Below are positions 4,966 to 7,401 of a stretch of DNA of 18,558 nucleotides, in pieces. The notes beneath the pieces were generated by a model. The model saw only the letters and a list, made by a program, of their open reading frames with translations, ran no database searches and was not told the DNA's origin. Position 1 is the first letter of the stretch. Each line of letters begins with the position of its first letter. Both the position numbers and the translations under genes were made by a program. Source of the DNA: a virus. The DNA is taken from the UHGV virus genome UHGV-0255022, one strand, 5' to 3'.

Positions 4966-5256
4966 TTAGTGATTCAGGCCGTTGCCGCGTCCGTCGAGAA
5001 AAACTTCCACGAGCAAATCACGGGTATAAGTGCGCTCGATGCCGCGATGCAGATAAAGCCGTCCGCGTAAATTAGCTGATGCAGTCCAGGTACCATCTTT
5101 GTGTTTGACCAGCATTCCTGGCATGACCGCACCGCGATTAACGGTCTGCGTTCCGTAATGTTGATGAACCATAAAAACTCCTGCCCGTAAGCTGGGCTGC
5201 TGAACATATAGAGACTTCTGCGCGTATTCAGGCGGTGGATGGCCGCCGGTTGTCAT
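4966..5256 (-). CDS. Hypothetical protein, first ORF of the predicted pL transcript
   Basis: 96-aa ORF with a GAGG about 11 nt upstream. It has no arginine-rich N-like motif and no recognisable family. An alternative 77-aa frame (4974..5207) overlaps it. Confidence 0.35.
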
Positions 5257-5430
5257 AACTAAGCCGCCTCGTTGAAGCGACTAAGGTATGAAATGTTGAG
5301 TTAATTTCAGCTGGTCACACCGACGTTCACGCGTCCGTTTCACCCCTCGCACTCCCCGAAGCCTGCTGAAATTCAAACTGCGGATCTAAGCGGTCATCGC
5401 AACGGTGAATCAGGTAGTTGCCGTATCGTT

Positions 5431-5510
5431 GTGTTGTTGCGATGAACTTATTTAAAACTATAGTTGTTTTATCGTCAACAACAAAAGTTGTTTTATTGGT
5501 TGTTTTAGAT
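5431..5510 (-). promoter_or_regulatory. Predicted leftward early promoter pL with an OL operator cluster of GTTGTT/AACAAC half-sites
   Basis: Minus strand: -35 TTGACG (plus 5473-5478), 17-bp spacer, -10 TTAAAT (plus 5450-5455). It is embedded in repeated GTTGTT/AACAAC inverted half-sites (AACAAC-tttt-GTTGTT, GTTGTTGACG...AACAAC) that mirror the OR architecture. Confidence 0.5.
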
Positions 5511-5619
5511 ATAACTGGTTGTATTTAGGATGGATTTATTTTGTGACTTGAATCGCATAGCGATAACTGAAGCGAGGTTATGGTGGTTTTTTTAACGGTG
5601 TGTGTGATGAGGGGAGGGC

Positions 5620-5646
5620 AAAAGAAAACCCGGCACGGTGACCGGG
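5620..5646 (-). terminator. Intrinsic terminator downstream of the repressor gene
   Basis: Minus strand: CCCGG-tcaccgtg-CCGGG hairpin followed by ttttctttt. It lies between the cI stop (5768) and pL. Confidence 0.45.
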
Positions 5647-5767
5647 ATTCTTACGCCGTTAGGTAAAGATATTATTGCGGTGGCTTAATATTACTACCTA
5701 GAGCAAAGATAGGAATTAGTTCTTTACTGAATGAGCACAATGCCCAGTTGATAATTTTTAATTGGTA

Positions 5768-6457
5768 CTACCCATGCTTCCTATATGTCTGCGGCATGCT
5801 CCCAATAACCTTACCGAAGATGAACACCCGGTTCATCTCGTCTTTCTCGATCGGGTCCCACGGTGAGTAGCTTTTGTTATCAGAGATGACCAGCAGCTTA
5901 TCCTTCATCATTTGCAGGCGCTTTACATGGGCTGTGTCGTCGTACAGAAACGCATAGATACCATCACCGTCGAAAGATTTAACTGTGATATCAACGAACA
6001 GCAGATCACCTGGTTCGATCGTTCCTGACATGCTGTCACCACGCACGTTAATGATGCGGATATTTTCCGCCTTCCTACCATCGAACATGTGACGAGCATC
6101 GTCAAACGAGTACTCAACCGAGCGTAGAACTTCTACAAACTCACGGTTGATGACTCCCGGCCCAGCACTGACTTCTATATCAAGAACGTCAATCTTGAAG
6201 TATTTGGAATGGCTGACAGTTGATTGTATTGGTTGCACTGTACTGTCTGACATATTTCCAACGCCAGAAGATAACCATTCTGCGCGCACACCCAAAGCGT
6301 TCGCGATCTCCACGATTTTAGTTGTTTGATTAGCTTTCCCTGTTTCGATTTTCTGAATAGCAGCCTGGCTAACCCCGACCAAATCCCCAAGCGCCTTTTG
6401 TGTAAGGCCTCGCGCTAATCTGGCTTCTTTAAGTCTTTCTGAGAGTGTTGTTTTCAT
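5768..6457 (-). CDS. CI-type prophage repressor (N-terminal XRE HTH, C-terminal S24 LexA-like autopeptidase)
   Basis: HTH motif LTQKALGDLVGVSQAAIQKIETGK; an Ala-Gly cleavage site (SAGPG); catalytic Ser in GDSMSGT and Lys in HVKRL. The start is placed at MKTTLSERL (ATG 6457) rather than the ORF-track start at 6523, which lies inside the operator. It is divergent from the cro-like gene and probably leaderless. Confidence 0.85.
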   Translation of the reverse strand: MKTTLSERLKEARLARGLTQKALGDLVGVSQAAIQKIETGKANQTTKIVEIANALGVRAEWLSSGVGNMSDSTVQPIQSTVSHSKYFKIDVLDIEVSAGPGVINREFVEVLRSVEYSFDDARHMFDGRKAENIRIINVRGDSMSGTIEPGDLLFVDITVKSFDGDGIYAFLYDDTAHVKRLQMMKDKLLVISDNKSYSPWDPIEKDEMNRVFIFGKVIGSMPQTYRKHG

Positions 6458-6463
6458 AGTCCA

Positions 6464-6492
6464 AATGTACAACCAAGGTTTTATTCCATCAA
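6464..6492 (-). promoter_or_regulatory. Predicted PRM-like promoter for a leaderless repressor mRNA
   Basis: Minus strand: -35 TTGATG (plus 6487-6492), 17-bp spacer, -10 TACATT (plus 6464-6469), with the cI ATG about 7 nt downstream and no SD. Confidence 0.4.
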
Positions 6493-6498
6493 ACGAAA

Positions 6499-6534
6499 AT
6501 GGTTGTTGACTAAAAACAACCATAGTTTTAATCT
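6499..6534 (+). promoter_or_regulatory. PR promoter overlapping a 25-bp perfect palindromic operator
   Basis: Palindrome ATGGTTGTTgactaaaAACAACCAT (6499-6523). -35 TTGACT (6506-6511), 17-bp spacer, -10 TAATCT (6529-6534), then SD GGAGG (6552-6556) and the cro-like ATG at 6562. Confidence 0.6.
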
Positions 6535-6561
6535 TGATTCAAATTAACCACGGAGGTTGTT

Positions 6562-6792
6562 ATGAACCCAGCTATCAAAACAGCGATCAATATCGTTGGT
6601 TCACAAAAGAAACTGGGCGCTGCTTGCGAAGTTTCACAGCAGGCCGTCTATAAGTGGCTTCACAACAAAGCAAAGGTATCCCCTGAACATGTCGGCAGCA
6701 TTGTTACGGCTACTGGTGGAGTAGTGAAGGCATACCAGATTCGCCCGGATCTTCCGAAGTTGTTTCCACACACCGAAAAGAACGCAGCTTAA
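6562..6792 (+). CDS. Cro-like HTH regulator (YdaS-like)
   Basis: 76-aa ORF, first gene of the rightward operon, with an HTH (SQKKLGAACEVSQQAVYKWL) and a strong SD. Confidence 0.8.
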   Translation: MNPAIKTAINIVGSQKKLGAACEVSQQAVYKWLHNKAKVSPEHVGSIVTATGGVVKAYQIRPDLPKLFPHTEKNAA

Positions 6793-6861
6793 ATTTCCAT
6801 TTCACGCTCTTTAACAATAAGCAATCAACTTAACAGTCAATTCAAACTAAAGGAGTCAATT

Positions 6862-7401
6862 ATGCAACCACTTACATACCAACAGACTAGCGGATTTAGC
6901 CCGACTGCGGTGATAAATCGTTCTCAAACAAAACAGGTGCCAGGCCACGAAAAAATCCGTGATGCCGTCCGCGCCTGGTCGGCTGTAGATAATCAGGATG
7001 TCGTTGCCACACTCATTGTGAATGAGTATCTGGAGCAGGGCGGCGGCACCATCGATTTCCCTGATGATGTCAGCCGTGCACGCCAGAAGCTGTTCCGCTT
7101 CCTCGATAACAAATTCGATTCTGAAAAATACCGAAATAACGTGCGTGAACTGACCCCGGCAATTCTGGCGGTACTACCGCTGGAATATCGCGGTTACCTG
7201 GTTGAGCAGGATAGCTTCATGGCTAGGTTGGCTGAAATGGAAAAGGAACTCAGTGAGGCAAAACAGGCTGTCATTCTCAACGCACCACGCCACCAGAAAC
7301 TGAAGGAAATTAGTGAAGGTATTGTGTCGATGTTTCGTGTGGACCCAGATCTGGCTGGTCCATTGATGGCGATGGTTACTACCATGCTGGGGGCGATATG
7401 A
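6862..7401 (+). CDS. YdaT-like prophage protein in the CII position
   Basis: 179-aa ORF with SD aaaggag. The motifs EYLEQGGG and LTPAILAVLP resemble Rac-prophage YdaT as recalled. It lies between cro and O, where lambda has cII. Confidence 0.5.
   Translation: MQPLTYQQTSGFSPTAVINRSQTKQVPGHEKIRDAVRAWSAVDNQDVVATLIVNEYLEQGGGTIDFPDDVSRARQKLFRFLDNKFDSEKYRNNVRELTPAILAVLPLEYRGYLVEQDSFMARLAEMEKELSEAKQAVILNAPRHQKLKEISEGIVSMFRVDPDLAGPLMAMVTTMLGAI

What the first reader, a model, noticed from the sequence alone, without database searches (positions are those of the whole stretch)
6440..6561. OR region: 25-bp perfect palindromic operator with GGTTGTT half-sites and a leaderless repressor start
Between the divergent cI and cro-like genes lies the perfect palindrome ATGGTTGTTgactaaaAACAACCAT (6499-6523), overlapping a near-consensus PR (-35 TTGACT, 17 bp, -10 TAATCT). 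A PRM-like promoter on the other strand (-35 TTGATG, 17 bp, -10 TACATT) would start transcription at or next to the cI ATG, with no SD, so cI is probably leaderless as in lambda. The half-site GTTGTT differs from the lambda, 434, P22 and 21 operators that I can recall, suggesting a distinct immunity specificity.
Basis: partly seen in the sequence, partly recalled or inferred. Interest (0 to 1): 0.55.

Follow-up and report, generated by a model that had tools for sequence, protein, structure and literature searches.

The report
Prophage switch with 434-type operators

Summary
The inverted repeat ATGGTTGTT-N7-AACAACCAT at 6499-6523 is present, as 9+7+9 and not a full 25-bp palindrome. It lies between a divergent S24-type cI (5768-6457, minus) and a YdaS-type cro (6562-6792).

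Comparison with 30 loci from other Enterobacterales shows that the conserved unit is a 14-bp dyad, ACAAC-N4-GTTGT: five conserved bases, four variable, five conserved.
- OR has three such sites at 6469, 6493 and 6516, spaced 24 and 23 bp.
- A possible fourth site lies over the cro ribosome-binding site (6547).
- OL has two or three more (5454, 5478, perhaps 5509).

That gap is 9 bp at OR and 10 bp at OL, whereas the N4 spacing never varies.

The closest solved relative of the cI N-terminal domain is the 434 repressor. The sites fit the 434 frame ACAA-N6-TTGT, but carry C at position 5, which no annotated 434 half-site has.

This is a new, uncharacterised member of a known kind. It is found in 1521 of 5426 complete E. 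coli genomes. Nothing here was tested experimentally.

The parts
5768..6457 (-). cI repressor gene, 229 aa: 434-like HTH N-terminal domain plus S24 self-cleaving C-terminal domain (Ala98-Gly99, GDSM Ser142, Lys179)
   Evidence: Pfam HTH_3 5e-13 and Peptidase_S24 1e-18. Closest solved structure is the 434 repressor. RefSeq uses the same start.
6464..6469 (-). PRM -10 hexamer TACATT. It abuts OR3 and lies 6 nt before the cI ATG, so the predicted transcription start is at or next to A6457 (leaderless).
   Evidence: Sequence. TAnnTT is conserved at the same position, with 6-7 nt to the ATG, in 18 aligned sequences.
6469..6482 (.). OR3: ACAACCAAGGTTTT, inside the PRM spacer. Predicted site of negative autoregulation.
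   Evidence: 9/10 match. At this position 26 of the 30 relatives (L002-L031) have a 10/10 dyad, with a variable central 4 nt.
6487..6492 (-). PRM -35 hexamer TTGATG
   Evidence: Sequence. The TTG (CAA on the + strand) is conserved in all 18 aligned sequences, with a 17-nt spacer except in L024 and L026, which carry one extra base.
6493..6506 (.). OR2: ACGAAAATGGTTGT, centred 42.5 bp upstream of the predicted PRM start. Its last base is the first base of the PR -35.
   Evidence: 8/10 match. Conserved block CAAaCgAA.tAT.GTTgT. The geometry matches 434 OR2, centred 43.5 bp from the annotated pRM start.
6499..6523 (.).
   Evidence: The gap between the two halves is 9 bp at OR and 10 bp at OL.
6506..6511 (+). 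PR -35 hexamer TTGACT
   Evidence: Sequence. TTGAC/TTGAT in most relatives (TCGACA, TTGCAA and TTGTAA in three), and the same module at PL.
6516..6529 (.). OR1: ACAACCATAGTTTT, filling the PR spacer. Predicted main site for repression of PR.
   Evidence: 9/10 match. ACAACYATRGTTTT is conserved in relatives and nearly identical to OL1.
6529..6534 (+). PR -10 hexamer TAATCT (3/6 here; TATACT, TATAGT, TAATAT or TATATT in relatives)
   Evidence: Below the promoter scan threshold.
6547..6560 (.). Candidate fourth operator ACCACGGAGGTTGT, overlapping the cro Shine-Dalgarno GGAGG (6552-6556), at about +6 to +19 of the PR transcript
   Evidence: 9/10 match. The left half ACnAC recurs in many relatives, but the distance from OR1 varies from 27 to 31 bp, and the right half coincides with the SD plus its spacer. 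One E. coli variant changes position 5.
6562..6792 (+). cro analogue, 76 aa, YdaS family. Its recognition helix SQQAVYKWL resembles that of cI.
   Evidence: Pfam YdaS_toxin 4e-17. The cI and Cro helices change together across immunity types.
6862..7401 (+). YdaT-family protein, the functional counterpart of CII in this type of module
   Evidence: Pfam YdaT_toxin 9e-30. The role is inferred from CP-933P (PMC9986795, PMC8630535).
5454..5467 (.). OL1: AAAACTATAGTTGT (ACAACTATAGTTTT in the PL direction), in the PL spacer
   Evidence: The same site, in the same promoter context, occurs in the 19 relatives shown in the PL alignment.
5473..5478 (-). PL -35 hexamer TTGACG. The -10 is TTAAAT/TAAATA at about 5449-5455.
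   Evidence: Sequence. The module GTTGT-TGACa-N4/5-ACAACTATAGTTTT-AAAT is conserved in most relatives.
5478..5491 (.). OL2: ACAACAAAAGTTGT, the only 10/10 dyad in the window
   Evidence: It is 24 bp from OL1, as in most relatives.
5509..5522 (.). Candidate OL3, ATATAACTGGTTGT: one good half-site, 31 bp from OL2. A further lone half-site TGGTTGT lies at 5497-5503.
   Evidence: Half-sites. ACAACC half-sites recur 12 and 31 bp upstream of OL2 in several relatives. 434 OL3 is also 31 bp from OL2.
5629..5646 (-). Terminator-like hairpin downstream of cI, the probable end of the PRM-cI transcript
   Evidence: Terminator scan: 6 pairs, 5 of them G-C, followed by a T-rich tail.

Best explanation
Positions 6458-6561 are the right operator/promoter region (OR) of a lambdoid prophage of the DLP12 type. 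The repressor has a 434-like helix-turn-helix domain and an S24 self-cleaving domain. As a dimer it binds 14-bp dyads with the consensus ACAAC-N4-GTTGT: five contacted bases, four uncontacted, five contacted.

Three dyads sit 24 and 23 bp apart.
- OR1 (6516-6529) fills the spacer of PR. OR2 (6493-6506) touches the PR -35. Occupying these two sites shuts off cro and the lytic genes.
- OR2 is centred 42.5 bp upstream of the PRM start. From there it can activate PRM as lambda and 434 repressors do.
- OR3 (6469-6482) fills the PRM spacer and gives negative autoregulation.
- A fourth, weaker dyad over the cro ribosome-binding site (6547-6560) may add repression.

The same dyads (OL1, OL2, perhaps OL3) control PL about 1 kb to the left.

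PRM starts transcription at or next to the A of the cI ATG, so cI mRNA is leaderless. The YdaS-type Cro carries a similar recognition helix and most likely binds the same dyads with a different order of preference. SOS-activated RecA would trigger cI self-cleavage at Ala98-Gly99.

The 9-7-9 palindrome is a by-product: two head-to-head dyads placed side by side necessarily give a tail-to-tail inverted repeat between them.

Shown here: the sequence anatomy, its conservation, the spacing statistics and the homologies. Inferred: binding, order of occupancy, activation, the transcription starts and RecA-triggered cleavage.
For: 1. Enrichment. ACAACNNNNGTTGT with at most 1 mismatch gives 6 hits against 0.70 expected, and 0 of 200 shuffles reach 6. 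Five of the six lie in the two regulatory regions.
2. Alignment. A MAFFT alignment of OR from the window and 17 species (Kosakonia to Xenorhabdus) shows the half-sites conserved and the central bases of OR3 variable, with the same 24/23 spacing in most.
3. Spacing spectrum over 31 sequences. There is a single sharp peak at ACAAC-N4-GTTGT (39 exact hits in 30 sequences; 124 hits in 31 sequences with at most 1 mismatch). The reverse orientation splits between N9 and N10.
4. OL pairs. The relatives shown in the PL alignment carry OL2 + TGACa + OL1 beyond cI, 24 bp apart in most (23 in two), which is one base more than at OR.
5. Pectobacterium rdgA loci have no cro. They keep a lone perfect 14-bp dyad at the rdgA start and an OL1-like dyad about 100 bp upstream of the Mor-like downstream gene.
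6. Recognition helix. [S/T]QAAIQKIE is invariant in all 30 loci that have this dyad, despite 56-78% overall identity. It differs in the 5 loci that have other repeats.
7. The Cro and cI helices are alike and change together between immunity types.
8. The closest solved structure is the 434 repressor N-terminal domain. The 434 site is 14 bp, with an outer 5+5 and an inner 4 (PMC1636474). The annotated 434 operators and promoters have nearly the same geometry.
9. E. coli variants 96-100% identical carry all their intergenic substitutions outside OR1-OR3 and outside the promoter hexamers.
10. The 6-7 nt between the PRM -10 and the ATG is conserved. The upstream in-frame extension is closed within 0-9 codons in 23 of the 30 relatives.
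Against: - No binding, footprint or transcript data exist for this phage, and none were found in the searchable literature.
- PR and PRM are each only 8/12 to consensus and were not called by the promoter scan.
- OR2 is a weak match (8/10; left half ACGAA).
This is one evolutionary event, but it is what would be expected if something reads the inner dyad.
- The fourth site coincides with the SD sequence and its distance from OR1 is not fixed, so it may not be an operator.
- The best dyad in most relatives is OR3, not OR1. The lambda order of occupancy therefore may not apply.
Confidence: 0.8

Rival explanations
1. One reading: the repressor recognises one long dyad, GGTTGTT-N7-AACAACC (6499-6523), as its main operator, overlapping the PR -35.
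For: The arms are perfect 9-mers. The repeat is conserved in most relatives, and in L016, L019 and L020 both arms change together.
Against: - The arm-to-arm distance is 9 bp at OR and 10 bp at OL, in roughly equal numbers. A rigid dimer would not tolerate that.
- This model leaves unexplained the conserved outer halves, the OR3 dyad, and the lone 14-bp dyad at Pectobacterium rdgA.
- The half-sites would point away from each other, 14 bp centre to centre. That does not fit a 434-type dimer, which reads ACAA...TTGT over one helical turn (PMC1636474).
- L021 breaks the palindrome but keeps OR1.
- Phage 434 shows the same by-product (TTGTAT-GAAA-ATACAA between OR2 and OR1), although its annotated operators are the 14-mers.
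Confidence: 0.06
2. Interleaved registers: cI reads the head-to-head 14-bp dyads, while the YdaS-type Cro reads the tail-to-tail dyad between OR2 and OR1. The two regulators would then compete through overlapping but different sites.
For: - In L016, L019 and L020 the Cro helix changes (TQAAVQKWL) together with both inner half-sites, while the cI helix stays the same.
- In CP-933P, two overlapping kinds of repeat were seen within the PaaR2 and YdaS footprints, and the authors left the exact sites open (PMC8630535).
Against: - This rests on one lineage, that is, one event.
- The Cro and cI helices are similar ([ST]Q[QA]A[VI][YQ]K) and co-vary across immunity types, which argues for a shared half-site read in the same way.
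- The variable 9/10 spacing applies here too.
Confidence: 0.08
3. The palindrome acts as an RNA hairpin or terminator, for example on an antisense PRE-type transcript running toward cI.
For: The terminator scan lists it on both strands. The RNA fold is -9 kcal/mol, z = -2.35.
Against: - It has only 3 G-C pairs and a poor T tract.
- It lies upstream of both predicted start sites, so neither PR nor PRM transcribes it.
- A terminator in front of cI on the establishment transcript would defeat that transcript's purpose.
- The conservation pattern is that of DNA half-sites, not of paired RNA bases.
Confidence: 0.02

Closest known systems
Phage 434 immunity region (cI, OR1-3, OL1-3)
   Same: - The repressor N-terminal domain is the closest solved homologue.
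- Operators are 14 bp in a 5+4+5 layout with outer ACAA...TTGT (PMC1636474).
- OR spacing is 23/22 in 434 and 24/23 here. The third OL site is 31 bp from OL2 in both.
- The PRM -10 abuts OR3, and OR2 is centred about 43 bp from the PRM start.
- The C-terminal domain is the S24 self-cleaving type.
   Different: - Position 5 of the half-site is C here and is never C in the 12 half-sites of 434.
- The recognition helix is SQAAIQK here and TQQSIEQ in 434.
- In 434 the PR and PRM -35 hexamers overlap and OR1 lies downstream of the PR -10. Here the two promoters are one operator unit further apart: OR1 sits in the PR spacer and a possible fourth site lies downstream.
- 434 cI has an 18-nt leader with a ribosome-binding site. 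Here cI appears to be leaderless.
- Cro here belongs to the YdaS family and is not a 434-Cro homologue. CII is replaced by YdaT.
Phage lambda OR/OL genetic switch
   Same: - Divergent PRM and PR, with three operators 24 and 23 bp apart.
- OR2 in an activating position.
- An OL counterpart.
- A leaderless cI mRNA (as stated in PMC8630535).
   Different: - Lambda operators are 17 bp with a different sequence, and lambda cI has a different type of N-terminal domain.
- OL lies about 1 kb from OR here, against 2.4 kb in lambda (the lambda figure is from general knowledge).
- No N gene was recognised to the left of PL.
CP-933P (E. coli O157:H7) PaaR2 / YdaS / YdaT module
   Same: - YdaS serves as the Cro analogue and YdaT as the CII analogue.
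- The repressor gene is leaderless.
- There are four repeats in the intergenic region and a PL/OL copy (PMC8630535, PMC9986795).
- cro and the 179-aa gene here match the YdaS and YdaT Pfam families.
   Different: - The repeat consensus there is GTTTAGTAA in 18-bp palindromes, so it is a different specificity.
- PaaR2 lacks the S24 domain organisation seen here and is followed by a toxin-antitoxin pair.
RdgA/RdgB of Pectobacterium (DNA-damage control of pectin lyase)
   Same: - The loci L004-L015 encode a cI-like protein 64-72% identical in the N-terminal domain, with the same recognition helix.
- They have a perfect ACAACCTAGGTTGT at the gene start.
- They have an ACAACTATAGTTTT dyad in a PL-like promoter upstream of a Mor-like 116-aa gene.
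- The related repressor of Erwinia phage phiEt88 (61% identical in this domain) is annotated rdgA.
   Different: - It is a chromosomal, domesticated two-gene circuit with no cro and no OR1/OR2 pair.
- The identification of these loci as rdgA/rdgB, and the published autoregulation of rdgA, are from memory of the 1990s literature. I could not retrieve those papers.

Membership tests
Lambdoid immunity region (cI / OR / cro switch) | Divergent repressor and cro genes with a short intergenic region that carries back-to-back promoters | tested here: met
   cI 5768-6457 (-) and cro 6562-6792 (+), with 104 bp between them. The hexamer positions are conserved in 18 sequences. The promoters are only 8/12 to consensus.
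Lambdoid immunity region (cI / OR / cro switch) | Three tandem dyad operators about two helical turns apart, with a second set at PL | tested here: met
   OR sites at 6469, 6493 and 6516 (spacing 24 and 23). OL sites at 5454 and 5478 (spacing 24). Enrichment; conservation.
Lambdoid immunity region (cI / OR / cro switch) | Repressor with a LexA/S24 self-cleavage domain (Ala-Gly site, Ser and Lys catalytic residues) | tested here: met
   Peptidase_S24 1.2e-18. Ala98-Gly99, Ser142 within GDSM (140-143) and Lys179 within VKRL (178-181). Cleavage itself was not tested.
Lambdoid immunity region (cI / OR / cro switch) | Repressor and Cro actually bind the operators and give bistable control | not testable with these tools
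   This needs EMSA or footprinting and reporter assays.
434-type repressor/operator | N-terminal domain homologous to the 434 repressor | tested here: met
   phmmer against the PDB: 434 repressor 1per/2or1, E 4.5e-9, over residues 5-68.
434-type repressor/operator | 14-bp operator with 5 conserved + 4 variable + 5 conserved bases and outer ACAA...TTGT | tested here: met
   Spacing spectrum, alignment and the annotated 434 operators for comparison. The 5+4+5 description comes from PMC1636474.
434-type repressor/operator | Same immunity specificity as 434 (homoimmune) | tested here: inconclusive
   Position 5 is C in 11 of 14 half-sites here and in 0 of 12 in 434. Helix residues differ at 434 positions 29, 30, 32 and 33. 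This suggests heteroimmunity, but cross-immunity was not tested.
Leaderless cI mRNA (lambda type) | Transcription starts at or within a few nucleotides of the start codon, with no Shine-Dalgarno sequence | tested here: inconclusive
   The -10 ends 6-7 nt before the ATG in all 18 aligned sequences. The start at 6457 is supported by homologues and by RefSeq. The transcription start itself is not mapped.
YdaS/YdaT-type (Rac, CP-933P) early-right module | A YdaS-family Cro analogue followed by a YdaT-family CII analogue | tested here: met
   PF15943 4e-17 and PF06254 9e-30.
Intrinsic terminator | G+C-rich stem followed by a U tract, located at the end of a transcription unit | tested here: not met
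   3 G-C pairs of 9, a poor T tract, and a location upstream of both promoters' start sites.

The most novel reading that the evidence does not exclude
The array of ACAAC half-sites is read in two registers. The repressor reads the head-to-head 14-bp dyads. The switch would then work through interleaved operators instead of shared ones. The only hint is one lineage (L016, L019, L020) in which the Cro helix and both inner half-sites changed together while the cI helix did not.
Probability: 0.07. Interest if true: 0.6.

Novelty: new member of a known kind. Interest (0 to 1): 0.3.

Why it matters
This immunity region is present, at 95% identity or more, in 1521 of 5426 complete E. coli genomes. 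It also occurs in recently deposited inducible phages (PhiR34_1, Turner and others). Even so, I found no description of its operators in the searchable literature.

A correct operator model has several uses:
- It predicts which prophages are homoimmune.
- It gives ready-made sites for repressor-based reporters and for induction studies.
- It links a phage switch to the chromosomal RdgA/RdgB circuit of soft-rot Pectobacterium.
- It shows how one base of the half-site (position 5) and a few helix residues may separate this group from 434.

It does not change what is known about how such switches work.

Tried and rejected
- Promoter scan. It reported neither PR nor PRM, because both are 8/12. The promoters therefore rest on comparative evidence, not on consensus strength.
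- Literature. I searched for the phage names and for five exact operator strings. Only irrelevant hits came back. Searches for RdgA binding sites found no primary paper, so the RdgA link stays a lead.
- Rfam on the whole window. No family matched, so there is no known RNA element in OR or in the PL leader.
- Long cI start at 6523 (251 aa, as annotated in PhiR34_1). Rejected, because the extension is closed within 0-9 codons in 23 of the 30 relatives and RefSeq uses 6457.
- YdaT consensus TTGATT-N6-AATCAA near OR. The sites at 6534-6551 and 6811-6828 have 2-3 mismatches. Overall there were 21 hits against 15.7 expected, which is not significant. I did not pursue this beyond noting one perfect site elsewhere.
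- Hairpin or terminator reading. Rejected as weak and in the wrong place.
Full report
**What is in the sequence**

The window is a lambdoid prophage of the DLP12 type. It carries int, exo/bet/gam, an immunity region, O/P replication genes, a nin region and lysis genes. The stretch 5700-6900 is 100% identical to Escherichia phages PhiR34_1 and Turner. The stretch 6380-6640 occurs at 95% identity or more in 1521 of 5426 complete E. coli genomes.

It is a 9-7-9 repeat, not a 25-bp palindrome. Perfect repeats of this size are about five times more frequent in the window than in simulations (5 against 1.1). About 2% of simulated 104-bp intergenic regions contain one.

**The flanking genes**

- *cI.* The minus-strand gene has an HTH_3 domain and a Peptidase_S24 domain. 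It has Ala98-Gly99, Ser142 (within GDSM) and Lys179 in the expected order.
- *cI start.* The longest ORF starts at an ATG inside the palindrome (6523, 251 aa), and PhiR34_1 is annotated that way. In 23 of the 30 relatives that share this operator, the in-frame extension is closed within 0-9 codons. The proteins align from MKTTL onward. RefSeq also annotates 229 aa.
- *cro and the next gene.* The plus-strand gene (6562-6792) belongs to the YdaS family. The following 179-aa gene belongs to the YdaT family. These are the Cro and CII analogues described for prophage CP-933P (PMC8630535, PMC9986795).

**The repeated unit**

The same half-site occurs more often than the palindrome accounts for, and it also occurs left of cI. 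Read in the other register, the sequences are 14-bp dyads ACAAC-N4-GTTGT:

| Site | Coordinates | Sequence |
|---|---|---|
| OR3 | 6469-6482 | ACAACCAAGGTTTT |
| OR2 | 6493-6506 | ACGAAAATGGTTGT |
| OR1 | 6516-6529 | ACAACCATAGTTTT |
| possible fourth site | 6547-6560 | ACCACGGAGGTTGT |
| OL1 | 5454-5467 | AAAACTATAGTTGT |
| OL2 | 5478-5491 | ACAACAAAAGTTGT |

With at most one mismatch the pattern has 6 hits in the window against 0.70 expected, and none of 200 shuffles reaches 6. Five of the six hits lie in the two regulatory regions.

**Comparative test**

A scan of one genome per species with the cI N-terminal domain returned 53 loci.

- *OR layout.* In L002-L031 (Kosakonia, Enterobacter, Klebsiella, Pectobacterium, Brenneria, Pantoea, Erwinia, Serratia, Providencia, Morganella, Photorhabdus, Xenorhabdus and others), the site next to the cI start is a 10/10 dyad in 26 of 30 loci, with a freely varying central 4 nt. 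In the loci that have a cro, the other two sites follow 24 and 23 bp further on in most.
- *OL pair.* Beyond cI, the 19 relatives shown in the PL alignment carry the pair ACAAC-N4-GTTGT / TGACa / ACAACTATAGTTTT. The spacing is 24 bp in most and 23 bp in two.
- *Spacing spectrum.* Over all 31 sequences (167 kb), ACAAC-Nk-GTTGT has 39 exact hits at k=4 in 30 sequences and at most 2 at any other k, except k=16 (12 hits). The invariant dyad is therefore the 14-mer. The palindrome is the right half of OR2 facing the left half of OR1, and its spacer follows promoter geometry (17 nt at PR, probably 18 at PL).
- *Same by-product in 434.* Phage 434 has TTGTAT-GAAA-ATACAA between OR2 and OR1.
- *Variation within E. 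coli.* Variants 96-100% identical carry their intergenic substitutions at 6460-6461, 6486, 6541-6542 and 6551. None falls in OR1-3 or in the promoter hexamers.

**Protein side**

- The closest solved structure to the N-terminal domain is the 434 repressor (E 4.5e-9).
- The 434 site is 14 bp, described as an outer 5+5 plus an inner 4 that is read indirectly (PMC1636474). This is the conservation pattern seen here.
- The recognition helix [S/T]QAAIQKIE is invariant in all 30 loci with this dyad. The five loci with other repeats have other helices. They carry a different dyad (ATAnn-N4-nnTAT) at the same position.
- The Cro helix ([S/T]QQAVYKWL) resembles the cI helix. Both change together in the other immunity types: cI xQPT[IV]WRL with Cro xQPTVWRWL. 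This argues that both proteins read the same half-site, as in 434.

**Promoters and the leaderless start**

- The PRM -10 is TAnnTT and abuts OR3.
- The PRM -35 keeps its TTG.
- The PR -35 is TTGAC or TTGAT in most relatives.
- The PR -10 starts at the last T of OR1 and is closer to consensus in several relatives.

In the window itself both promoters are 8/12, and the scan called neither. The PRM -10 ends 6 nt (6-7 in relatives) before the cI ATG, which leaves no room for a Shine-Dalgarno sequence. A leaderless cI is therefore the best reading, but the start site is not mapped.

OR2 is centred 42.5 bp from that predicted start. In the annotated 434 record, OR2 is centred 43.5 bp from the pRM start.

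**Differences from 434**

The annotated 434 record differs in four respects.
- 434 cI has an 18-nt leader with a ribosome-binding site.
- In 434 the PR and PRM -35 hexamers overlap, so OR2 lies in the PR spacer and OR1 lies downstream of the -10.
- Here the promoters are one operator unit further apart. OR1 lies in the PR spacer, and a fourth dyad-like sequence lies over the cro Shine-Dalgarno sequence. That fourth site is uncertain: its distance from OR1 varies from 27 to 31 bp, and its right half is the SD plus its spacer.
- Position 5 of the half-site is C in 11 of 14 half-sites here and in none of the 12 in 434. The helix differs at four positions. A separate immunity is likely but untested.

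**Open point**

In the same loci the Cro helix is TQAAVQKWL, while the cI helix is unchanged. L021 breaks the palindrome without such a change. This is one lineage, so I treat it as a hint that Cro might read a different register. I do not treat it as evidence against the 14-mer model for cI.

**Verdict**

The general reading (OR, PR, PRM, leaderless cI) holds. The operator assignment is in the wrong register, and the comparison with 434 is reversed: this is a 434-type system with a new half-site.

It is a new, uncharacterised member of a well-known kind. It is of practical interest because it is so common in E. coli, and because the same repressor/operator pair appears domesticated in Pectobacterium. 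Every mechanistic step beyond sequence anatomy, conservation and homology is inferred.

Noticed in passing
window 14326-14343: A perfect match to the published YdaT operator TTGATT-N6-AATCAA (TTGATTATGAATAATCAA). It lies in the intergenic region between a minus-strand esterase gene (13017-14060) and the NinB/YbcN-like gene (14508-14963). About 0.001 perfect matches are expected by chance in 18.5 kb. It is absent from all 61 fetched loci, including PhiR34_1. It could be a second target of the prophage's YdaT protein.
   Followed up: partly
window 6312-6325 (inside cI, +132 from the start): An operator-like sequence, ACGATTTTAGTTGT (8/10), lies inside the cI coding region. The Pectobacterium rdgA genes have ACAACCAAAATTGT (9/10) at exactly the same offset. 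It encodes the conserved residues T-T-K-I-V, so it may simply reflect coding constraint.
   Followed up: no
L004-L015 (Pectobacterium and Samsonia), e.g. L012 2486-4087: Chromosomal cI-like genes with the same recognition helix and the same 14-bp dyads, followed by a 116-aa Mor-like gene behind a PL-like promoter. This looks like the RdgA/RdgB DNA-damage circuit, that is, a domesticated relative of this phage switch.
   Followed up: partly
window 5523-5767, and L056-L059 downstream of cI: The slot between the cI stop and OL holds only a terminator-like hairpin in this window. In other E. coli copies with the same cI it holds different cargo: a GevT toxin, a lipoprotein, a BamE-like protein, or a Panacea-domain protein. 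It appears to be a hotspot for accessory or defence genes, like the rex position in lambda.
   Followed up: no
window 9365-10906, 11184-12980, 13017-14060: Cargo between ren and the nin region differs from PhiR34_1. There is an inverse-autotransporter beta-domain ORF (513 aa), then a separate ORF of Big_1/invasin repeats (598 aa), which may be a split intimin/invasin-like adhesin. A BD-FAE/alpha-beta hydrolase gene lies on the minus strand.
   Followed up: no
window 4966-5450: No N-type antiterminator was recognised left of PL. The first leftward ORF (4966-5256, or 4966-5172 as RefSeq's 'cell division inhibitor') has no Pfam match. About 200 nt of leader lie between PL and that ORF, with no Rfam hit.
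   Followed up: no
PV340559.1 (PhiR34_1) CDS 5302-6057 = window 5768-6523: The deposited annotation starts cI 22 codons too early, at the ATG inside the palindrome. The same submitters annotate 229 aa in PhiR47_2 and PhiR26_1.
   Followed up: yes
L016, L019, L020 (Brenneria, Symbiopectobacterium), OR region: The Cro recognition helix is TQAAVQKWL, not [S/T]QQAVYKWL. OR1 is flipped (AAAAC...GTTGT) and OR2 ends in GTTTT. The cI helix is unchanged. This may be a shift in Cro specificity.
   Followed up: partly
window 6534-6551 and 6811-6828: Weak matches to the YdaT operator (2 and 3 mismatches). One lies just downstream of the PR -10, the other in the cro-ydaT intergenic region, where CP-933P has its main YdaT site (PMC9986795). 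They are not significant on their own.
   Followed up: no
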